A stretch of DNA of 64,000 bases from Euglena gracilis (taxonomy: Eukaryota): NCBI GenBank assembly GCA_039621445.1, contig CP154954.1, positions 22,208,954-22,272,953 on the forward strand, written 5' to 3'. The translations under genes were made by a program, and so were the position numbers. The notes under the pieces are model-generated. The model had not been told where the DNA came from and did not search any database. It was given only the letters and a program-made list of their open reading frames with translations. Below, one piece after another: positions 270-64,000 of the stretch. Each line of letters starts with the position of its first letter. Positions within the stretch are counted from its first letter, which is position 1.

Positions 270-3200
270 GGCATGTCCTCCTGCTCGAGGGAGGGCAGGA
301 GGAGGTCGACGGGGCGCAGGCCGGCGTGGTCGCAGCAGAACAGGTTGGCCCCCCGGTCCAGCAGCGTGGACGCCCCCACGCCGCTGCGGCGGAACACTCG
401 GGAGGCATTCGCCCGACGCGGAGGGGTGGGAGGAGCAGCAAAACCCATTTCTGGTTCCAAAATGGTTCCAGAAATTGTTTGGCAATTATTTATTATTTAT
501 ATTTGGAAAAAGAATGGATGCAGCGAAGCGCTTCGTACTGCCTGAGCGGCTCAGCAAGGCTTTCCAAGAGACAGTAAATGCTGCTGCTGGGTGCCTGAAG
601 GCGAAACACCTACATGAACATCAACGCTCAATGTAGCAACGTAATTCTCGAATACTTGAGTTCTTGCCCTGCAAAGTTCTTGTTCCTCAGTTTTGTTCTT
701 TTTACAGATACAGGATCGCCGGATGAAACGGGGACGGTGCGGTAGCGCCGGCGTGGCCACCACCTCCCGCAGCTGGAGGTCGTCGTACTGGTGGTGGTTG
801 GTCGCCGGCGGCAAGGCCCCGGGGCCGGCCCCAATCCCGGGCCCAGCCCCGCCCCGCCGTTTCCCGGGGGCTTGGCCAGCAGGTGCAGGGCGGTGCGGCC
901 GTCGGCGTCGCGGAAGTTGGCCGGCATTTGCCCCTCCTGGATGCCGGTCTGCGGAAGGCGGGGCAAGGCGGGGGGGGGGGTTGGGGGGTTCTTGCGATGG
1001 CAACACACCGCTCTGGCTCTGTGACCAGGCACCTATGGTCACTTCCCATTTTGGTGCTCTGGTCGGCCCTGGTCGGCCCTGGTCGGCCCTGGTCGGCCCT
1101 GGTCGGCCCTGGTCGGCAAATAGTCGGCCATAGGTGGGGGTATCCGTCACAGAAAAAAAGATTGTGAAAAATGACCCAAAATTACCAAAAGGGCACAAAA
1201 TGGCCAAAATGCCATAAAATATGCTCATATTGACCCAATTAGCCCAATATTTGCCAAATCAGTGACTGCGGTCGGCTGAAAATGGCTAAAAATGGCCAAA
1301 AGTGGGCAAAGGCCAAAGAAAAGCTGTTTTGGCCACTGTTTTTGCAAATTCAGAAGCTGCACCTGGCGCAAAATGCTCAAAAATGGTCAAATTGGACCAA
1401 AAAGAGACCAAAAAATGGACAAAATTACAAAAAAAGGTCGAAAATGGCTTTAAATGGTCAAAAATGGCCCAAGAGCGGGACAAAATGGCCCAAAATTACA
1501 AGAAGTGCGCAAAAAAATGGCCAAAAATGGTCAAAATAGGTCAAAATTGGCGAATTATGGTTACAAAAAGGGCCAAAAGCGATTATGGTTACAAAAAAAG
1601 GGGACAAAAGGGACCTAAAAGGACCAAAAGTGGCCAAAAGTGGCCAAAAGTGACAACATGAGCCAGATGAGCCAGAAAAATCTCAAAATCTGGGATAAAA
1701 ATGAGCCTAATTCCTCATTCTCACTGAAAACTTGACATCAATTAGAAAAAAGTTGCGCGGTCAGCTGCGGTCGGCTGCGGTTGGCTGTGGTCGGCTGCGG
1801 TCGGCTGCGGTAACCCGCGGTCGATGCTGCCGGGCCAGCATCGCCCAGCATCGCCCAGCATCGCCCAGCATCATCAGAGGTGCTTGGTCCAGAGGGAAAG
1901 CTGCTGAATTCCTTCATCCATTCCCCTTCCGTCGGCCAACCACATGCAAGTCGGCCCTGGTCGGCCCTGGTCGGCCCTGGTCGGCCCTGGTCGGCCCTGG
2001 TCGGAACCCCCACCTACGGGGGTCCTGAAACTCATAGTCGGCCCTGGTCGGCCCTGGTCGGCCCTGGTCGGCCCTGGTCGGCCCTGGTCGGCCATAGGTG
2101 CCTGTCTGTGACGTTCCGTACAGCTCTGCACACCCCTCCCCCGTCGACAGTGAAGTGGGTTCCCCCTGGGTTCGCTACCAGGAGGACGTCCCCCACCCCC
2201 CCGACCCTCACGGGGTCCAGCCCAAGCCCACCTGGCTTTATGGCAAACGCTGAAGGGATGGGGCTCTGTGACAGGTTGCGCCGCGCGGCATCAACACTGC
2301 CGTGCGTCGTGTTCCCCAACTGCACACAACAAACCTCCACCCGGCTTTACCTCACCCCCACGGCGGGCTGGGGGCGCCACACCATCATGCCGGTGAACTG
2401 CGACTTCAGGGCCCGCAGGGAGATGGTGGGGCGGGTGGTGTCCTTCTTCGTGGTGAACGACGCCAGGAAGCCCTGCAGCCGCGCCTTGGGGATGGCCCGC
2501 CGCGTCCCCTGGCCGCCCGCCGGCCCTGGGGGGGGCAAGTGAGGGAGGAGCAGGGGCTTTTTTTTTTAAAGACCGGGGGGTCCCCACCACCCCCTGGGGC
2601 TCCGGGGGGGGGGTCCTGGGGGACCCACCACTTTCCCCCCCAAAAATGGCCAAAAAATTGTGAAAAATTAAAAATAACACCCTTTTCATTTTTTTTGGTG
2701 CCTTTGGCGCCGAAAAGTATATTCCACCCCCCCATGGGGGAACCCCCCGGGGGGGGAGTGGGGCTCGGACCCACCCACCCACCACTCCCCGGGGTGCAAG
2801 ACAAAAAAAAAACCCCTGGGGAGGAGGGGCGGCCGGCCCCACCAGGCATCGGCGTGGCAGACAGGCATCGGCAGGCATCACCGGCAAAATACTTCATTTC
2901 CAGCGCACGCGGACATGTGCACAGGTTTTTCATATGAGAAGCTGTCTCCAGCAAAGTATATTGAGGGGGGTGGCAGCTGTGGGGAGAATGCACCACAGTG
3001 CCAAAATAAGCCATAAAAAAAATTCAACAAAAAGCAACTGTATGGGAGTGGTTTAGGACCTCCTCGGAGTGAACCCTGAGGGGAAACTTCTTCTGTGTGC
3101 AGCACATTGAATCTTGGACAATCATCCACACTTCTCCACCAAAAACAAAAACAGCAGTGTGAGCAAAACTTGCACAATTTCACAAAAAATCCGAAAAAAA

Positions 3201-23873: not shown

Positions 23874-25832
23874 CATGCTTGCGCATGTGTGTGCAGTGGG
23901 GGGTCTCTCGTTCACACACACACACACACATGTATGCACCAGGGGTTTTTTTAAGACCAGGGGGAGGGGGTCCCCACCCGCCCACCCCCCCCCCCCGGGG
24001 GGGGGTCCGGGGACATCCTCAATTATACCCGAAAATGGCCAAAAATCGCGAAAATGCTTAAAATAGCACCTTTTTCAAAAAATTTCGGTGCCTTCGGTGC
24101 CGAAAAATATATCCTTTGGGGGGGGAGCTCGGCTGGACCCACCAACCCTCCCCCCCCCCCCGTGGTCCAAGACTAAGAAAACCCCTGATCTGCACACATT
24201 AATATTCACTGCAAAGTTCAGACTGCAATGTGCCATATGGGTGATTGAAAAATGGCAAACACCTGCCACGTTGAAGGTGCGTCTCGTTTCAAGAAAATTC
24301 CGCATCAATAGCTTTGGAATTAGTATGGCCCCTCCTTTCCGCTGAATTGCTGCCAGAGACGTCTTAAGAACCCAGGAAGGGGGATCATCACCTGCCCAGG
24401 GTTTAAATAAAACCAGGTGGAGGTGAGGGGGTGGTCCAGGTGAGGTTGGTGGAGCAGAATGATGCTGGCACAAAATACCAAACTGGAAGAAATTGCCTTC
24501 AGGAATTGGGCAAAAACACCATCATGGGTGCTTTTTGGTCAAAAATGTGTTACCTTGTAGATCTTTGTATTCCAACCAGAGCCTTTTAACGCCACCAATC
24601 CCCCCTTCTGTGGGCGGTGCAGTTGAATCCCCCCCCCCCCCGACCCCCTGCGTCCCAAACCAGTCCCACCCCGGAAGTGTGGGGGTTGGTACGAGTGGGC
24701 CCACCCACCCCCTGGAATGGGGGACTCAACAATCTTCGGTGGGAAGTGCCGAAATGCTGAGTGCCGAATATGTATTTTTTGCCCTTGAAATGGACACTGA
24801 CCTTTGGTCCCCCAACCCCTTCCAGGGGGTAGGGGTTGGTCAAGGTTTGACGTTAAGAGGGTGATTTGGTGGTTTTGATGTTAAGAGGAGGTGTGGACCC
24901 ACCCCCCTCCTTGACCGGGAAAGGTCCACCCCCCCCCCCGTCCCACCTCAAAGGGGATCCGGACCAACCCCAGGAAAATCAAATCCTCCTCCCCAGATTT
25001 GGGTCAAAATAAAATTTTTGTCATCACCTTCTTCGATGCTTTTTTAGGAAAGGGTGATAAACCGACCCCGTTCCGCTCTAGTAGTGTTTCTGGTAATGTT
25101 TGTTTGTTCACTTTTGCAATACGAACATTCAGCGCCTTGCAACACCAATGTGACGCAGCAAACAAATCCACCTTTCAAGGTGGAGAACTTGGAGGCATTC
25201 TGGGCATCCACAAATGTCTTCTTCGTCGGCAATGCTGTGCTGGGCACCCGGCTCTCAGGGCTGGGAGGAAGGTGGGGGAGGTGTGGCAGGGGCTGAAAGG
25301 CCCCCGGACCTGTTTTGGCAAAGCCACAAGGAACTGTGGCGCATCAATTTCTACAAATGTGGTAGAGAATCCCCATTCTGTTGATCTTTTGCTGCTTTTC
25401 ACTGCTTTTCTTGAAATCTCGGTTTATCAGGAGTGGCATTCAGAAGAGGCGCTTAGATCCAACCATTTTGTTGTCCAGATCTTCATCATTTGGTGGGCAG
25501 TGTATGCTTCTGTGATAAGAGCAATAAGAATAGTGGGAGTGTTGTTGTGGTAGTTGTAGTGGTAATTGTAATCATAAAAACAACAACAGGAGGGCTACAA
25601 GGATGAGGCTGATGATGAGGATGAGGATGAGGATGCGGATGAGGATGAGGATGATGATGACAATCTGAAAATTTCACGCATTTATTAAGCTTTCAGGAGG
25701 AATGTAACTTTAATCCCCCAATGATCCCATTGCCCCATTGATGCCTGCCGTACTCATTTATGGTGCAATTCCAGTCAGTGATGCTTTACGATCGTCACCC
25801 TTTCCGCAGAGCCTGCCGCGTTTCAAACAGCC

Positions 25833-32600: not shown

Positions 32601-32850
32601 CATACAGCTCTATATGTGATCCATACACCTCTTTAAATACCCTTGGGAGGTGCTGCAAAGCTGGGCCAAAAAAAAATTGGGCAACAGCTGGGACGGGAGG
32701 TCTTCAAAACCTTAAAGAAATCTAAGGTGAGATCAGTTACACCTGTCAGTTAAACTCACAAAAGCCCAAATCAGTTGTGTGTTTCCCGATCAGATTGCTG
32801 CAGCATCCCATGTGCTCTCGTTCCCCAAGCAGCCCATCTTGGCACAGGCG

Positions 32851-35800
32851 TTATGGCACGCTGCTGGCACCGCGCCAGATGCGCACCGTCTTGTCATGAG
32901 AGCCGGCCACAGGGGGCCGCAGCGAAAGTGGCAGTGCAAATAGACCCACAGCAACACAGCGGTTTTAATTCTGCACCGGTCTCCATTCAGGACCGGCTTT
33001 GGATCGCCTCCCCAGCCCCCCCCCCCATTCGACACCAAAGCATCAGCATGCTGCTTGTCGAGGCGCCCTGGCCCGACACAAACGACAGGCTGTCGGGGCA
33101 GACCGCGACGCTGGTGACGTCCCCGGTGTGCCCTTTGGCCACGCCCAAGACCTCCCCTGCAGAGACATGGGGGACCGGGGCCGTCAGTGGCGGGCCAAAG
33201 GCACGGAACCGCCATGCTACGAGGTGTCTCGGTGCACAGGGGGAGCCACGCCGCTGTTGGCACCGCTGGGTGGCGCGTTGACCAGCGGAGAGGATGCTCT
33301 GCGCCACACACCCCGCAGCCATAGGGTTCTTTGCAGGCAGCGGAGGGGGGTGGCAAGGGGCCACACCCGAGAACGGGCTCCAGATCCGCAGGGTGCGGTC
33401 GAAGCTGCCAGACACGACGTACGCCCCGCTGGGGGCGATGGCGACGCAACTGACGTCCCCGGCGTGCCCCTCCAGCACTGCCAGCAGCTCTCCTGAAACA
33501 CCCACATGCAGAGAGACAGACAGACAGACAGACAGACAGCTAGCCAGGCAGCCAGGCAGCCAGGCAGACAGACAGACATCCCATCAACAAAAAAAAAGCA
33601 AAAATATCCAGTTTCAAAAGAAAAAAATCTGCTGTACGTTTCCACAAATATATGGTGCATCTGTACTGGAACGACCTTGACCTTGTTTGCCATGCACTGA
33701 AAATTGTTGCAGAGCCCCTGGGGGGTATTGGGACGGTGTGGGACATATTCTCATGGGTGCTAAGACTGGGCAATGCGCATACCAGTCTGTCGGTCCCAGA
33801 CCCGGATGGTCTTGTCTTCCGACCCGGACACAATGTGGCCGCCGCCGCGCGATATCGCCACGCAGGTGACGTAATCGCTGTGACCTTGAAGCACGTGGGC
33901 CAGCTGCCCTGTCCGAGGGGATGCAGTGGTCCGCCAACTTCTGGAAACACTGGCTTCGGGGGGGCGCGGATCGCCCAACCGATTTTTGCATTTATTTGAC
34001 ATTTTTTGGCTGTTTTGAAACCCACCTGAAAGGCCACAATTTTAGGTTCAGAGGGGTGGGTGGCAGCTTTGGGCCAAAATCTTCCGGACGTGGTTTTGCG
34101 CGGTTCTCCGCCTAAACGATTTCTGATTGTGTGTGAATTGTGTGATTTGGGAATGCATTAGAACTGTTTGGAATGGTCGAAAAAACACTGATTTTGAATG
34201 GGTGTGCCATGGGTGTGACTGTGTGTTAAACGGTATTTGAGAAACAAATGAATATTACAAGCTTACGCGGATAACTGCCTAAAATGAAACAAGAGGTGTT
34301 AGACAACAGCGTGAATTGTTCAGGTGCATATCCGCGTGGAATAAACTTGTACGCGGATTGCCACCTAAAAGTGAAAACAAACAATGGTACGCGGATTACC
34401 GCCTACCATAACACAAACAGTTGATGACTTGTAGGAGGGAATCCACCTGTTGTGTGTGTAATGTGGTGAGTGCTTGGCGAATAGTGTAGGCGGGAATACG
34501 TATGGGGTGAATAAGAAACATAGTGGCGTCCTGGTGGTGTTGCCCTACCCCTCATCCGTGTCGGACCAGCATTGGCCAGACGTCAGCGCCTGCTGGGGTC
34601 TCTGGAATGGGGTACAATAACACCATGGCCAATGGTAGCTGGACTCCCTAACGACGTGGGCAGCCACCCGATGATATCCTGCCTTCGCCAACGCTCTTGG
34701 ATAGAAAATGGTTCCTGTCTAAAATGGCCCAAAATCAAAAAAGTAAAATTGACTAGTTGATGAACTGCACTTGCAGCATCCAGTATGAGCCAAAACCCAC
34801 AAAGTCTTTGCACCCACCAACAATTCTGTTTAGCCGCCCAACCAGGCCGACATTAATTTAAAAACACCATTTATTGAGGAGCTGGCATGGGGTTGGGACG
34901 ACGTAGGCGGTTATTCGCTCAAAACGAAACACACAATACCTGCTCAAGAGGCCAACAGCTGACTTGTCACGCTTGAGCACGCTTGGCCTTCTTTTATGAA
35001 TTGGGTTGGGATGGAGACGGGGGTTGCAGAGACACAATTCATGGAGAGGGATGGAGGGGGGTATACCAGCTGTGAGGTCAGAGAGGCCAGGCGGGAAACC
35101 GCCGGGACACCTAAGGGTGGGCTGAAAAAGCAAAAGGGTTTGCGGACGATAGCGGAAGATGGGAACCCCCCTGGAATGACATGGTTTGTTTGCAAAATGT
35201 TGAAACTTTTCCACACTAGCCCGAAAAATGGAAGAACGAGAAAAAAGGAGGTGCTTTGGGCATTTTGTCAGAATGTCAGCAAAAGCTGCTAGTGTTCAAA
35301 GGGAAAATGCTGTAAAACTCTCTGAAAGAACCATTCAAAAGGCCTTGGAGGAATCCTTCCGAAAACCTCCGAAATTTTTCGATTGCCGCCACCAGCTGCT
35401 GAAATAAGCGCATTTCTGTCCGTTTCCCGATTTATTTCCTTTTTCGCCAGCTATCCCCGGAACCCTGGTTTTGGACCACCCACACCATTGGGCTCCAAGA
35501 GGAGGGGTCCGGGAGGTGCTTTCTTCCCTCCTGAGAAATTGACCTCAGCTTTCTGGCTGTTCATCAGGACAGCGGTTGAATAGCACCTGTACCGCACCGC
35601 AGCCTGCCTGGCAACTGACATGTGCATTCCACTGCCGCCCCTGCAGACGACACCTTCACCACTGGCCACGGGAGAACATGTCCACCTCATTGGAGAGGAG
35701 GGTGTCCCCCTCCTGCTCAAATGCCAGGCGGGTTTCCGCCTGCTTCGGTGCTTGCAGCCCCGGTACAGCAGCCGCAGCTCCCTTTCAGCCTGTCTGGCCC

Positions 35801-38800
35801 AACTTTCAAACATCATGTTGCCATGCCTCACTGACACACCAGTCACTGACGCACGTCGGGACACCGAGACATCACATTCACAACCCATCGGGACGACAAC
35901 AAGCTCCAAGCAGGTTTCTGTCAACACTACATCTGGGCGAAACCAGTGGAAAAAAAGGTGGAGCAGGCTGATAACCGCTTACTGCCACCGTTCACAAACG
36001 TCTCAAACATCCCCTCCACCTCCTTCACACTTGTTCATTAACAACTTCACTTGACTTGTTCATTGACACTTCACAACTTAACAACATTCACGTGATAACC
36101 GACTTCTGGAGGTTTCAGCGTGTTGCCACCTCCCGTTCCCACGTGTCATTCACAAACACCCCCAACCCGACAGCACCATCAACCAAACAAAACAAATAAA
36201 AACCCAACAGGTCCACCCATCCTTGGTAGCTGTGCATGAAGCTTTCTAATCTTTCATGCATCCATGGACTGGGAGATCCACCTGCAAACCGTTTTACAAA
36301 AACTTCCAAAAAAATGCCTTCTGCTTCTGCGCCGCCTCAAACAAAAATTTATCCATGTCTTTCTCGGTGGGGGTTTACAGGTGGGGAAAACGTGTTCAAT
36401 TTTGCGGAGCCCAGCTGAGGGAACTTGTGTGCTGACAAACTAAGATACGGTGTACTCAAACCACATACTACTTCAGTTCACCTTGGCCCCAAACTTCTCA
36501 AAATTCTTGAAGTTGTGATGGCCAGAATGGTGTTGTACCGTTTCCCACTCCCCCTGTTCTGGATAGCAGCATAGGCAACCATGCCTCACTCCCGTGCTTT
36601 CCTGGTCCAACTGCCATCCTGCTTAGCTGAATGATACGCCGCGGTGCACAGCCCAGGAGGAGGGGGGAATGCAGGGGTTCTCATAAACCATTTAGAGCAC
36701 CAGGGGCAAGCACACACAACACACACCTCATCACTTCTTTAGGCAGTAAACCACCTAAACCATTTTTAACGTTACTCCCAGTCCAGTCCCGGCAGCATCT
36801 CTTCTTCATACGAACAAAAATTAGGCAGATAACCGCCCAACCCATCTCTTTCAGAAAATACAGCATCCTTTTGGCAGTTTTGTCTGTTTACCTCCCCCAT
36901 CACTGGACCTCGGGACTCATGAGAGGTTCAAAAATGGGCGGGTTGCTTAGGCAGTTTCCTTTTCTTCACAGGTGATACCATGACACTCCCCCTCCAGAGG
37001 GTGGGTCGGGCAGCATCGCGACACAACCGGAGCTATGGAGGCCAGGTGTTCTCCGGCTGTTTTGTGTTTTTTTCAAGTTTTCAAGGCGTTCCGGGGGTGT
37101 GTTTCCCAACCCCCCCAAAACAGCCATAAATTTTCAAAATCAGCATTTTGCCAAAATGCCTAAAATTGACCTAAAATGACCCAAAATTTTCTATCAGCGT
37201 CACCTCCAAAAAAATTCAACCCCAAACAGTTGGGGTCGGCTAAGCGGAAACCCACCTACCTCAAACGCGCAGAAATTGGAAAAAATGTTGGGCAATTCGC
37301 GCCGCCTTGAACTGGGTCAATCCCTGGCCATCTGTGCATTTTTTGACTTTGGATTGTTGTCTCCATCTTAACCCCCCCAAAAATAAAATCACCCTGGGGA
37401 ATATTATTTGGTCGGCTGCAGTCCACCCAAAGGGGGAATATTACTTGGGGGTATATTATTTGGCAAAATTTTCATAATTTTTGGTTTTAATTTCGATGCA
37501 TTTCAGCTGCCCCCTTGCAGCCGTGGCTGTGCAACGCAAACCGGTGAATCCGGGGCCGCAGTTTCCTCAGCCGAAGGCCGAGCCATCACGGCCATTCGCG
37601 ACCAGCACCGCAATTCACACGGCGCCGACACGCAGCCCGCGCACCGGTGGACAGCCGCCACAGCCGCACGGTGCAGTCGTTGCTGCCGGAGGCGAGGAAC
37701 GCCCCGTCGCCGGACACGGCCAGGCTGCGGACGTAGTCCGTGTGCCCCTGCAGCGTGGCCCGCAGCTCCCCTGTGGTGGGGGTGCGGGCAAGGCGGCGGC
37801 CGCCCTTCGTATGGAACGTGCGGCCCACCACACCGGTGGTGTGGGGACCCTCAAACCATTGCACTTCGCAGGGGGAAAATGTTTGGCGGCAGAAACAGAT
37901 TTTGACCTCAAAAACAGTCACTTCCGGGTTCTGCAGGATCTGGGGAGGGGCGAGCACTTGTTTCGGCCAACCCCTGTGGCAGAGCGGGCTCGTTCTGATT
38001 TTCCTCCGCCTCCCCACATATGGTCCGCCGCATGGAGGGAAGTGTGTCGACGTTGCCTCTCCCATCCTCCTCCCTGATTTGGTCGGAGTACAAAGCCTCC
38101 CTTTTTGAAAAGCGATATGTCAAGAAATGCTGCAAGAAGTTCCGATTTTTGGAGTCATAGGGGCTTTACCCAACAGTTTTTTGACAGTGTTACTTTTTGG
38201 GCAATAATAAGCTGAGCTACTGAAGATGTTTTCAAAGATAGACCCAAAATGTCATTTATGGTGGAATATGATGCATACCAATAAACTTCGGGTTGATGAA
38301 ATTTCCGACCAAATACAGAACCCCCCCTGGGGTCTTGAGCTTCCACCCAAATGGATGTTCTAAATTCCGGGGGGGGGGGGAGTAAAATGGGCTCCTGGAT
38401 GGGGGGCGCACCGCACAAGGAAAGAGGGACGACATAAGGCGAGGAAAGGGTATGGGGTGAGGCACCCCCTGCTCCGGTCCATAGGGCTGCTTTCAGCCGA
38501 TGGGGGCTGGCAGCAGAAAACAGTGGTTGCGGTGGCCTCCTACACCCTTCAACATTGTTGGTAATTAAGTGTTTGCGGAGGTCTGGCGAAGATGAAATCG
38601 GTTTCCAAATAACACAAGATGTGAGGCACTCAAATAGCCCATGAATTCAAAGAACACTCAGCTCAGAAGCAGTGCGACAATGCGACTAATACCTGTGCGG
38701 CTGCTCCACAGGCGGATCGTCTCGTCGTACGAGCCGGAGAGAACAAATGCACTGTCTGGTGTGATGGCCACACAGCTGACGTAGTGCGTGTGGCCGTGCA

Positions 38801-39710
38801 GGGCCAAGACCTCACGTCCTAAGAAGAAGCCGAGGATCCATCCACCCACAGGTTTCCATTGCCACATAACGAAAAATCACGGTTTCATGGGTTCACACTT
38901 CAACAGTTTTCATCGCGATGGCGTGTATATATGTGTGCATATGTATGCATATATATGTATGTATATGCATATATATGTACATGTATATGTAAATATATGC
39001 ATATATATATGAACATACATATGTGTGTGCATATATGCATGATGCCCCCCCACACAGACCTGTCCCCAAATCCCACAGCCGGACGGACTTGTCCCGGGAG
39101 CCGGTGACCACCAGCGTGCTGTTCCGGGAGATGGCCACCCCGGTCACCATGTGCTCATGGCCCTGCAGCACTGCCAGCTGCTCCCCTACACAACGCGACG
39201 CGCCAACGCAGCGGCCCCACTGCGGGGAGCAGGCCACACAAAAGGCACGCGAGGGGTTTCCATTCTGGCATCCCTTCCAATCCTCCTGGGGCTGGCCCAA
39301 GCTTTCCCACGGATATATACACATTATCTGTTTGTATCAATCTTCAGAATTGGAAAGAGTCAAAAATACAGCAAGTGTGTTGGGCAAAGCGTCTGGAGCA
39401 GTCTGAAATGACTCTGTTCCGGCTGTGTGACAAACCAGCTTTGGGGAAGGTCTCCCCGGCTTCAGCGAGGTCTTCTTTGGCCATGGGGCTTTGCTAAGGT
39501 GTGTGCAATTACTGAAATTGGAATGTGCCAAACTGGGACGCTTTTCTTCACCCACCAGCAGAGAGGTCGCAGCTGACGGCACACCTGTCAAGCAACTCCA
39601 GACCCGGGCGGTTGTGTCCCGGGACCCGGAGACAATGTACTTGCCATCCGAGGAGACGGTGACTGCGGTCACGTAGTCCGTGTGGCCCTTGATAACGTGG
39701 AGCTGGCTTC
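32851..39710 (-). CDS. WD40-repeat (7-bladed beta-propeller) coding block; 5' end not identified
   Basis: Exons 39585-39710, 39060-39185, 38693-38818, 37645-37770, 33783-33908 and 33367-33492 (each 126 nt, AG|..|GT, phase 1), then 33074-33156 and 32851-32904 (stop TAA). Each repeat has GH...V..V.....G/S....SGS.D.T/S...W (e.g. [32 protein letters not shown]). Confidence 0.92.
32905..33073 (-). other. Non-conventional intron, 169 nt, in WD repeat 7
   Basis: GGCCAGGG...CCCCTGTGGCC|G, with CAG at +4..+6, CTG at -8..-6 and Y|R. Removal yields [13 protein letters not shown], completing the WD motif. Confidence 0.9.
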
Positions 39711-39736
39711 CTGAGGAGGATCCGGAAACTATATAG

Positions 39737-40108
39737 AAACATACCCCCCCCCCAAATTTACTGTATAATGTCCCCCGGCAATTATATTTGGGCGGGATTT
39801 CAAGACCCTCGGGGGGGGCTTATATTTTGGGGGGAAAATCAAACTTTTCAGGGCGGACTATACCAATTTCGACAGCCTTTAACTCTAGACAAATACCAAT
39901 TTTTTACCAAATTTTCATTGTGTACCTCTTATTTCCCCCCAAAAACTTGCAAGTTTTGTCCGGAAATGACGATTGCTGGTAGAAAGAAATGGTATATCCA
40001 CCCGAATTTTTCTGCTTTCCTGAATATCACCGGCGGGCTTTGTATTGGGGGGGGGCTTTATATTTGGGGCTTTATACTTGGGAGGGTATAAATTTGGGGG
40101 GAAGTTTA
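39737..40108. mobile_element. Probable TIR MITE
   Basis: Inverted ends aaacat.ccccccccaaattta / taaatttgggggggaagttt and repeated ttatatttggg motifs; TSD not resolved. Confidence 0.5.
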
Positions 40109-40189: not shown

Positions 40190-63000
<22,811 letters not shown>

Positions 63001-63387
63001 GAAGGGACGCACGCTGTGCACCGCTTCAGAGCACAGCACGACGCGGAATGACGGAGACGCATGAGCACCGAGGCGGTGCTGAAGCAAAAAGAAATCCCGT
63101 CCCAGCACATTCGATGAAATCTCCACAAGAAAACGGGCGAAAAAAATGGCCATATTTTGGCGAAACAATGGGTCGACCTTGGGGGGGGGGAGCAATTTTT
63201 GGAATTCCTGGAGCATCACCCACCTGAAAAAATGGCAAAAAAAAAACCCCGTGTTTTCGACATTTCGGACGTCTGGGCGTCAAAGCCGTTCGATGCCTGA
63301 CGCCTGGACCCCCGTTGGCCGCCTTGGGCCTAAGGGCGGTCCTCAAGGGGCGGTCCTTGAGAATAAAAACTTCACCGCCCTGAAGAG

Positions 63388-63708
63388 CACCACCCACCCA
63401 CACACCCACACACACCCACACCCACCCACACCCACCCACACACACCCACCCACACCCACCCACACACCCACACACACCCACACCCACCCACACACACCCA
63501 CCCACCCACACACACCCACACACCCACACACACCCACACCCACACACCCACACACCCACACCCACCCACACACACCCACCCACACCCACCCACACACCCA
63601 CACACACCCACACCCACCCACACACACCCACCCACCCACACACACCCACACACACACCCACCCCCACCCCCCCACCCACACCCACACCCACACCCACCCC
63701 CCCACACC

Positions 63709-63747
<39 letters not shown>

Positions 63748-63770
63748 ACCCACCCACACACACCCACACA

Positions 63771-63811
<41 letters not shown>

Positions 63812-64000
63812 ACCCACCCACACACACCCACACACACACACACACCCACCCACCCACACACACCCACACACACCCACACACACCCACACACACCCACACA
63901 CACACACACACACACCCACCCACACACACCCACACACACCCACACACACACACACACACCCACACACACCCACACCCCCACACACCACACACACACACAC
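63388..64000. repeat. Degenerate (CA)n/(CACC)n low-complexity tract
   Basis: Directly visible. Confidence 0.95.

What the first reader, a model, noticed from the sequence alone, without database searches (positions are those of the whole stretch)
32905..33073. Motif-anchored non-conventional intron splitting WD repeat 7, with CAGGG/CCCTG ends and a relic TSD
Seen: the WD consensus SGS.D.T..IW is completed only if GGCCAGGG...CCCCTGTGGCC is removed, and there is no usable GT-AG pair. The ends (CAGGG...CCCTG) match those of MITE families B, D and E, and the junction repeat is 6/8. The six sibling repeats are uninterrupted at this position, so the intron was gained after the repeats expanded (inference). 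This is the best protein-level evidence in the window that such introns are spliced.
Basis: partly seen in the sequence, partly recalled or inferred. Interest (0 to 1): 0.8.

Follow-up and report, generated by a model that had tools for sequence, protein, structure and literature searches.

The report
Euglena-type nonconventional intron in WD40 gene
A 169-base interruption in the last repeat of a WD40 gene fits the published rules for Euglena's hairpin-guided "nonconventional" introns, so it is most likely an ordinary example of a known intron class, although I could not check its removal from RNA.

Summary
A minus-strand gene encodes seven WD40 repeats. Six sit on single 126-nt exons framed by phase-1 GT-AG introns. 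The seventh is split into 83 nt + 43 nt of coding sequence by 169 nt (33073-32905).

- Of 15,037 distinct deletion products tested, the 169-nt deletion scores best against a profile of the six siblings (54.5 bits; read-through 27.4).
- Its borders fit the experimentally defined Euglena nonconventional (NC) intron code N3-CDG...CH'G-N5|R (PMC12501133): GGC-CAG...CTG-TGGCC|G, with 8 of 9 Watson-Crick pairs in the end clamp.
- Chance coincidence is about 7e-5 to 1e-4.
- None of 194 GT/GC-AG pairs restores the motif, although 6 stay in frame.
- The flanking 8-mers match 6/8 (p about 0.007).
- No other copy of the intron is in the window.

Splicing itself was not shown.

CAG(G)/(C)CTG ends, 8-nt junction repeats and a proposed MITE origin are already in print (PMC4770533, PMC11282704). 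This scan also noted such introns in other windows of the same genome. Verdict: an ordinary member of a known class, of low interest.

The parts
32905..33073 (-). Candidate nonconventional intron, 169 nt (N3 spacer + CAG...CTG core + N5 spacer)
   Evidence: begins GGC-CAG-GG and ends CC-CTG-TGGCC. Its removal gives the best sibling-HMM score of 15,037 deletion products. It shares its donor with the only other strict-code candidate in the 306-nt exon-7 region (N5 and N6 acceptors).
33068..33070 (-). CAG motif at intron positions +4..+6
   Evidence: Pairs with CTG 32910-32912 at probability 0.58-0.59.
32910..32912 (-). CTG motif at intron positions -8..-6
33071..33078 (-). Upstream 8-mer TGTCGGGC next to the CAG core (5 exonic bases + the 3-nt spacer): putative 5' copy of a target-site duplication
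   Evidence: 6/8 identical to the downstream 8-mer. Random 8-mer pairs of the window reach >=6/8 with P = 0.0072.
32902..32909 (-). Downstream 8-mer TGGCCGGC next to the CTG (5-nt spacer + 3 exonic bases): putative 3' copy
   Evidence: Both mismatches lie in its five intronic bases.
33074..33156 (-). Exon 7a, 83 nt: first 27 full codons of WD repeat 7 (ends ...SLSFVS)
   Evidence: Pfam WD40 positions 4-28 of 39 only, 19.2 bits.
32851..32904 (-). Exon 7b: [10 protein letters not shown]..., then stop TAA at 32853-32851
32987..32989 (-). TGA stop reached if the 169 nt are not removed (read-through tail of 28 residues)
33157..33366 (-). Conventional intron 6 (GT...AG, phase 1, 210 nt, open in frame)
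33367..33492 (-). WD repeat 6 exon, 126 nt, uninterrupted
   Evidence: PF00400, 48.4 bits.
33783..33908 (-). WD repeat 5 exon, 126 nt, uninterrupted
   Evidence: 50.3 bits.
37645..37770 (-). WD repeat 4 exon, 126 nt, uninterrupted
   Evidence: 49.4 bits.
38693..38818 (-). WD repeat 3 exon, 126 nt, uninterrupted
   Evidence: 44.4 bits.
39060..39185 (-). WD repeat 2 exon, 126 nt, uninterrupted
   Evidence: 44.9 bits.
39585..39710 (-). WD repeat 1 exon, 126 nt, uninterrupted. It starts in phase 1, so at least one upstream exon is missing from the model.
   Evidence: 47.8 bits. Upstream exons not found.

Best explanation
The 169 nt at 33073-32905 (minus strand) are a nonconventional (NC) intron of the euglenid type in the last of seven WD40 repeats.

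**Proposed mechanism (inferred).** In the pre-mRNA the two ends pair: CAG at +4..+6 with CTG at -8..-6, extended to 8 of 9 Watson-Crick pairs and on into the flanking exon bases. This brings the junctions together. The non-spliceosomal NC machinery then cuts 3 nt upstream of CAG and 5 nt downstream of CTG. That joins ...FVS to [10 protein letters not shown]... and completes blade 7 of the propeller.

**Shown here.** The anatomy, its fit to the published cis-code, and the fact that only this deletion restores a full-length repeat.

**Inferred.** That the RNA is actually cut there, and that the intron was gained once, after the repeat array existed, possibly from a CAG-ended element that makes 8-bp target duplications.
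For: **Protein anchor.**
- Six siblings are single 126-nt exons. Repeat 7 is 83 + 43 coding nt around the insert.
- The 169-nt deletion is the top-scoring of 15,037 deletion products against the sibling HMM (54.5 vs 27.4 bits for read-through).
- Pfam WD40 breaks off at profile position 28 of 39 in exon 7a.

**Code.**
- The borders are GGC-CAG...CTG-TGGCC|G. This matches 5'-N3CDG-/-CH'GN5-6|R, which knock-in mutagenesis in E. gracilis showed to be required for splicing; all five fully synthetic introns built to these features were spliced (PMC12501133, Results read in full).
- It also shows G/C at +7/-9 and a purine at intron position +1, as in PMC4770533 (passages).
- With a strict filter (>=8/9 WC pairs) only this donor qualifies in the 306-nt exon-7 region. 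The background rate is 1.8e-5 per junction pair (20,000 random 306-nt windows). That gives about 7e-5 for the 4 DNA-equivalent registers and 1.1e-4 for the 6 protein-equivalent ones.

**Clamp and context.**
- The end clamp has pair probability 0.58-0.61 in the ensemble.
- None of 194 GT/GC-AG pairs restores the motif.
- The same insert stands in an independent public contig: P0002 is 97% identical, and its differences from the window fall only in intron-encoded residues.
- All seven repeat exons are open, with canonical flanking sites.
Against: **No RNA evidence.**
- No spliced product was found among proteins of 108-347 aa (28 hits of 339 candidates), of 348-2000 aa (only 120 of 672 hits were listed, so it may be hidden) or of 30-107 aa (none).
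- The only own-locus hit, P0002, reads through both the conventional intron 6 and this intron. It therefore comes from DNA or unspliced RNA.

**Other weaknesses.**
- The loose form of the code is unspecific: 18 candidates in 306 nt against a background of 7.8.
- The whole intron folds no better than shuffles (z = 0.00; 93 of 200 shuffles fold as well).
- The 5' end of the gene was not found, so an inactive gene copy is not excluded.
- I did not verify that the host is a euglenid. This rests on earlier notes of the scan and on the window's content.
Confidence: 0.8

Rival explanations
1. An unspliced insertion. A small element, or filler DNA from break repair, landed in the last repeat of a gene copy that is inactive or tolerates a truncated blade 7. 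The protein, if made, ends in the 28-residue read-through tail, and exon 7b is a leftover.
For: No spliced product was found in three protein searches. The only close hit, P0002, is the read-through ORF. The 5' part of the gene was not found.
Against: - The insert looks old: the flanking 8-mers are 6/8, the inverted ends pair over 9 nt only, and no related copy was found. Yet exon 7b still carries every consensus position of the sibling repeats, followed directly by a short tail and a stop.
- The borders fit the cis-code at a chance level of about 1e-4.
- P0002 also reads through the conventional intron 6, so it says nothing about mature mRNA.
Confidence: 0.1
2. The stretch is removed, but at other junctions. 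One option is the N6 acceptor (170 nt, 33073-32904), which shifts the frame. Another is a conventional GT...AG pair such as 33079/32890, which keeps the frame but deletes seven residues including SGSHDK.
For: - The N6 spacer is tolerated experimentally, with a 30-40% drop in transcript level (PMC12501133), and the base after N6 is also a purine.
- 6 of 194 GT/GC-AG pairs stay in frame to the same stop. The donor GTGTCG resembles the gene's other donors GTGTGC and GTGTGG.
Against: - N5 is the preferred spacer and the only one that keeps the frame.
- The AAG|A acceptor differs from the (C/T)AG|G of all seven conventional acceptors, six of them between repeats.
- All in-frame GT/GC-AG products lose the most conserved part of the repeat.
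Confidence: 0.05
3. The fit to the intron code is chance in a genome rich in CAG...CTG hairpins. What lies between 7a and 7b has no defined processing.
For: The window holds 580 cores with >=8/9 terminal pairs. That is 0.65 strict candidates per 306 nt.
Against: The junction was fixed independently by the protein repeat. The chance that this particular junction class carries a strict signal is about 7e-5 to 1e-4.
Confidence: 0.03

Closest known systems
Nonconventional (NC) introns of euglenid nuclear genes (Euglena gracilis, E. agilis; PMC3935182, PMC4770533, PMC6221363, PMC11170887, PMC12501133)
   Same: - No GT-AG borders.
- CAG at +4..+6 pairing with CTG at -8..-6; G/C at +7/-9.
- 3-nt and 5-nt spacers.
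- Purine at intron +1 and at the start of the downstream exon.
- A 'slidable' junction repeat (GGC).
- 8-mer junction repeats, like the eight-nucleotide repeats reported for a young gapC intron (PMC4770533).
- It sits in a gene that also has conventional introns, as is usual (PMC12501133).
   Different: Nothing structural. The differences are in what is known:
- removal from RNA, the order of removal and a circular product were not tested here;
- the 5' junction G|G does not follow the loose pyrimidine|purine tendency named in PMC11282704, but PMC12501133 found no base requirement on the donor side.
CAG-ended inverted-repeat elements with 8-bp target duplications in this window (MITE-like; hAT-like by my recollection of Ac/Ds ends, not tested)
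   Same: - Terminal CAGGG/CCCTG.
- Flanking 8-mers that resemble a duplication (6/8).
- 3 + 5 spacer bases = 8, so NC excision of such an element plus one duplication copy would restore the target exactly.
   Different: - No sequence likeness beyond the terminal 5-6 bases.
- The inverted ends pair over 9 nt only.
- No second copy in the window or in the scan's index.
- The true elements in the window have 8/8 duplications and arms matching at >=12/14.
Introner elements / transposon-derived spliceosomal introns (Micromonas, dinoflagellates, Fritillaria; review PMC11282704)
   Same: A mobile-element insertion that is neutralised by being removed from the RNA, with the duplication lying at the junctions.
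   Different: Those elements are removed by the (sometimes modified) spliceosome at or near GY-AG-type sites. This one has no such sites and fits the separate Euglena code.

Membership tests
Euglenid nonconventional intron | Borders are not GT/GC-AG | tested here: met
   The intron starts GG and ends CC. None of 194 GT/GC-AG pairs restores the repeat.
Euglenid nonconventional intron | CDG at +4..+6, complementary to CH'G at -8..-6 (PMC12501133; PMC4770533) | tested here: met
   CAG at 33070-33068 and CTG at 32912-32910.
Euglenid nonconventional intron | Exactly 3 nt between the 5' junction and CDG, and 5-6 nt between CH'G and the 3' junction | tested here: met
   The junction fixed by the protein repeat gives N3 = GGC and N5 = TGGCC.
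Euglenid nonconventional intron | Purine as the first base of the downstream exon | tested here: met
   G at 32904.
Euglenid nonconventional intron | Base pairing beyond the motif that brings the two ends together | tested here: met
   8 of 9 WC pairs from CAG inward. Pair probabilities are 0.58-0.61 and the helix extends into the exon flanks.
Euglenid nonconventional intron | Absent from the mature mRNA | not testable with these tools
Protein searches found no spliced product.
Euglenid nonconventional intron | Removed after the conventional introns and released as a circular RNA (PMC6221363 abstract; PMC11282704 passages) | not testable with these tools
   No reads could be laid.
Euglenid nonconventional intron | The host is a euglenid | tested here: inconclusive
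   Earlier notes of the scan name Euglena gracilis for this genome; I did not verify this. It is consistent with paralogues labelled EG_transcript at 57-64% identity and with CAG-ended elements in the window. No Rfam match.
MITE family of the window (CAG-ended, 8-bp duplication) | Sequence likeness to other copies (multi-copy family) | tested here: not met
   blastn of the 169 nt against the window gave only the self hit and poly-G matches of 26 nt or less. There are no look-alikes in the scan's index. The whole genome is not held.
MITE family of the window (CAG-ended, 8-bp duplication) | Terminal inverted repeats | tested here: inconclusive
   8/9 complementary, then no further match. The window's clear elements have >=12/14.
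MITE family of the window (CAG-ended, 8-bp duplication) | 8-bp target-site duplication | tested here: inconclusive
   6/8; P(>=6/8) = 0.0072 for random 8-mer pairs. 7 of 580 clamp-forming cores show exactly 6/8.
Conventional spliceosomal intron | GT/GC...AG borders that give the functional product | tested here: not met
   6 of 194 pairs are in frame, but all delete SGSHDK.
WD40 repeat (PF00400) - the host gene | Match above Pfam's gathering score | tested here: met
   Six exons score 44.4-50.3 bits against a cut-off of 27. Exon 7a alone scores 19.2 bits and covers profile positions 4-28 of 39.

The most novel reading that the evidence does not exclude
The intron is the eroded remnant of a CAG-ended transposon that makes 8-bp target duplications. 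Euglena's NC splicing geometry (3 nt + core + 5 nt = core + 8) would then be an RNA-level precise excision of such elements.

Here the two mismatches between the duplication copies lie only in the half that is spliced out. The half kept in the mRNA still encodes the repeat consensus. That is the pattern expected if the insertion has been spliced, and selected on, since it arrived.
Probability: 0.4. Interest if true: 0.4.

Novelty: new member of a known kind. Interest (0 to 1): 0.15.

Why it matters
It matters little on its own. NC introns are the majority intron class in Euglena: 71.8% of introns in E. agilis, with a comparable share reported for E. gracilis (PMC12501133). This one follows the published code exactly.

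Its small value is as a clean, protein-anchored example. A seven-fold internal repeat fixes the junction independently of any splice model, and the published code then picks the same junction. That supports using the code for gene annotation in euglenid genomes.

The 6/8 flanking repeat, together with six CAG-ended elements with perfect 8-bp duplications in the same window, fits the published MITE-origin idea but does not prove it.

Tried and rejected
- **Whole-genome search for family members.** No genome is held for this window.
- **RNA runs.** The look-up of sequencing runs listed 24 runs, and no listed holder is on record as RNA. X1-X19 are guessed to be RNA and hold small shares (0.07-0.10) that I never laid. 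X20 is the DNA holder (0.63). X21-X24 are raw RNA reads of the same species label. None of this is evidence either way.
- **Read laying.** The decisive test was therefore lost; I should have laid a shorter stretch.
- **Protein searches with the ORF 33583-32990.**
  - Near lengths: 28 hits of 339 candidates. Only P0002 is close, and it is unspliced.
  - Longer: 120 of 672 hits listed. All are multi-repeat paralogues or unrelated WD40 proteins, 65% identity or less. The listing is crowded, so absence is not shown.
  - Shorter, region 143-198: no candidate.
  - A grep of all 149 stored proteins for exon-specific peptides found only P0001 and P0002 for the two repeat-7 peptides and no hit for the junction or tail peptide; three other proteins share single repeat motifs.
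- **Metagenome contigs.** Three loci at 30-49% identity, not relatives. The first attempt failed because the query was too short.
- **Upstream exons.** tblastn of 10 paralogues gave 475 HSPs, none outside 32800-39800. Pfam on 44 of 70 upstream minus-strand ORFs gave 0 families.
- **Rfam on the window.** 0 matches.
- **Global structure of the intron.** No better than shuffles, so only the end clamp matters.
- **Earlier notes of the scan.** Nothing near this place or by sequence.
- **Comparing P0002 with the window.** 0 differences in 67 exon residues against 3 events in about 97 intron-encoded residues. This is not significant (my arithmetic, P about 0.2).
Full report
**What is there.** The finding lies in a minus-strand gene. 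Stop-to-stop ORFs and splice-site inspection show seven WD40 repeats.
- Repeats 1-6 each occupy one exon of exactly 126 nt: 39710-39585, 39185-39060, 38818-38693, 37770-37645, 33908-33783 and 33492-33367.
- Every intron between repeats is phase 1, with a GT donor and a (C/T)AG|G acceptor.
- Pfam WD40 (PF00400) matches each of the six exons over profile positions 3-39 (5-39 for one) of 39, at 44.4-50.3 bits against a cut-off of 27.
- Repeat 7 starts at a normal CAG|G acceptor (33156) and runs for 83 nt to ...SLSFVS (33074). There Pfam's match breaks off at profile position 28, at 19.2 bits.
- The rest of the repeat ([10 protein letters not shown], then seven more residues and TAA) lies 169 nt downstream, in another frame (32904-32851).
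- 169 is 1 mod 3, which is what the two frames need. Without removal, the frame runs 28 residues further to TGA 32989-32987.

This gave 15,037 distinct peptides, which I scored against an HMM built from the six sibling repeats.
- The best product, at 54.5 bits, is the one made by the 169-nt deletion. Six registers give the same peptide, and four of them give the same RNA, because GGC stands at both junctions.
- Read-through scores 27.4 bits.
- Neighbouring registers that add or change one residue score nearly as well (54.4, 53.1). The protein therefore fixes the junction to within a few bases and fixes the repeat length of 42.
- Of 194 GT/GC...AG pairs, 6 keep the frame to the same stop. All 6 use the acceptor AAG|ACG at 32890 and lose SGSHDK. 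'No usable GT-AG pair' is thus right in substance but not to the letter.

**What kind of intron.** The borders read GGC-CAG-GG ... CC-CTG-TGGCC | G. This is the cis-code that Nomura et al. defined by knock-in mutagenesis in E. gracilis (PMC12501133; abstract, all of Results and Discussion read): 5'-N3CDG-/-CH'GN5-6|R.
- The 3-nt donor spacer is strict, and a 5-nt acceptor spacer is preferred.
- A purine is preferred at the start of the downstream exon.
- Pairing behind the motif is required.
- All five fully synthetic introns built from these features alone were spliced.

The intron also shows features reported for 55 NC introns in PMC4770533 (passages read):
- G/C at +7/-9 (31 of 55);
- a purine at intron position +1 (51 of 55);
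- a purine at the start of the downstream exon (all 55).

From CAG inward, 8 of 9 positions are Watson-Crick pairs. In a 229-nt context the clamp, including five flanking pairs that reach into the exons, has pair probability 0.58-0.61. The intron as a whole is no more stable than shuffles (z = 0.00), so only the clamp counts.

**Chance.** The loose code (>=4 of 6 pairs, G-U allowed) is unspecific: 18 candidates in the 306-nt exon-7 region, against a mean of 7.8 in 2,000 random windows. With >=8/9 Watson-Crick pairs, only the donor at 33073 remains, with the N5 or the N6 acceptor. The background is 1.8e-5 per junction pair (20,000 random windows). The junction class was fixed by the protein, so the chance that it carries such a signal is about 7e-5 (4 registers) to 1.1e-4 (6 registers). 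This background comes from the window itself, which is rich in such hairpins, and is therefore conservative.

**Is it spliced?** This I could not show.
- No genome is held.
- The one search for runs listed RNA runs of the same species.
- Three protein searches with the ORF that spans exon 6, intron 6 and exon 7a found one close relative, P0002 (97% identity). It reads through both the conventional intron 6 and the 169 nt, so it comes from DNA or unspliced RNA.
- The search among longer proteins listed only 120 of 672 hits, all at 65% identity or less, so a spliced product may be hidden. The search among shorter proteins found nothing.
- Metagenome contigs held no relative.

The claim of splicing therefore rests on two things: the fit to an experimentally validated code, and the state of exon 7b. 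Exon 7b keeps every consensus position of the siblings, although the insert looks old.

**Transposon link.**
Random 8-mer pairs of the window reach 6/8 or more with P = 0.0072.
- Both mismatches lie in the five bases of the downstream copy that would be spliced out. The exonic bases of the upstream copy encode the V-S of the consensus.
- A scan found six elements with arms starting CAG (>=12/14 complementary) and perfect 8-bp duplications: 1026-2104, 2551-2818, 40483-41246, 40669-41196 (nested in the previous one), 44291-44691 and 51204-51599. Five shuffles gave none.
- Five of the six elements start CAGGG. Two families have further copies in the window.
- The intron shares only its terminal 5-6 bases with these elements. 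It has no other copy in the window or in the scan's index.
- Among 580 clamp-forming cores in the window, 7 have exactly 6/8 flanks.
- The 'relic TSD' is thus plausible but not established.
- An eight-nucleotide junction repeat in a recently gained NC intron, and the MITE-origin idea, are already in print (PMC4770533; PMC11282704; Discussion of PMC12501133). My searches found no paper that states the equality 3 + 5 = 8-bp duplication outright. I did not open any supplements.

**Gain after expansion.** All six siblings are uninterrupted at the homologous place. One gain is more parsimonious than repeated losses. PMC3935182 (abstract) and PMC4770533 report that NC intron positions turn over quickly while conventional ones are conserved, which fits a gene with six conserved phase-1 GT-AG introns and one odd NC intron.

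**Open points.**
- The first WD exon starts in phase 1, so upstream exons must exist. I did not find them.
- The host's identity as Euglena gracilis comes from earlier notes of this scan, and I did not verify it.
- The scan has already reported such introns, with 8-bp flanks and MITE links, in other windows of this genome. One of them is a near-twin: a repeat gene framed by phase-1 GT-AG introns whose repeats are cut by NC introns.

**Verdict.** It is an ordinary member of a well-described intron class. Splicing is unverified here because the decisive call was lost.

Noticed in passing
window 1026-2104, 2551-2818, 40483-41246, 40669-41196, 44291-44691, 51204-51599: Six inverted-repeat elements whose arms start CAG (five with CAGGG) and which have perfect 8-bp flanking duplications; five shuffles gave none. 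Two of the duplications are poly-C and therefore doubtful. In the four others the sixth duplicated base is G, which is the purine the NC splicing code wants at the exon start.
   Followed up: partly
window 40483-41246 with 40669-41196 inside: A nested insertion: a 528-bp CAGGGTTGG-ended element with its own 8-bp duplication sits inside a 764-bp CAGGGGTT-ended element. The outer element is related (70-75% identity) to 2551-2818 and 23940-24187.
   Followed up: partly
window 32851-39710, minus strand: One WD40 repeat per exon. Six exons of exactly 126 nt are all separated by phase-1 GT-AG introns, a layout suggestive of exon duplication. The intron between repeats 4 and 5 is about 3.7 kb long.
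   Followed up: partly
window 33157-33366, minus strand: Conventional intron 6 is 210 nt long, has no stop codon and is in frame with its flanking exons. Its retention would add 70 residues instead of truncating the protein. A public gene call (P0002) reads straight through it.
   Followed up: no
window 33509-33578 and 38924-39028: Microsatellites inside introns of the WD gene: (CAGA)17 in intron 5 and an AT-rich TATATG-type array in intron 2.
   Followed up: no
window about 42170-42600, 47300-47500, 56000-56700, 63000-64000: Long (GT/CA)n and (ATGTATGT)n-type simple repeats appear as long spurious ORFs rich in C, V, M and Y.
   Followed up: no
window about 58100-59600: A very GC-rich stretch (0.705 over 58001-60000) with tandemly repeated units. 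It reads as a 600-residue open frame of PGPARP/RRHGPA-like repeats on the minus strand and has no Pfam match in the neighbouring ORFs that were scanned.
   Followed up: no
window 57100-58600: Several tandem copies of a unit of about 230 nt, seen as repeated peptide blocks in minus-strand ORFs (GVPHGWFGSPGG...). It has no Pfam match and is probably a satellite or a repeated element.
   Followed up: no
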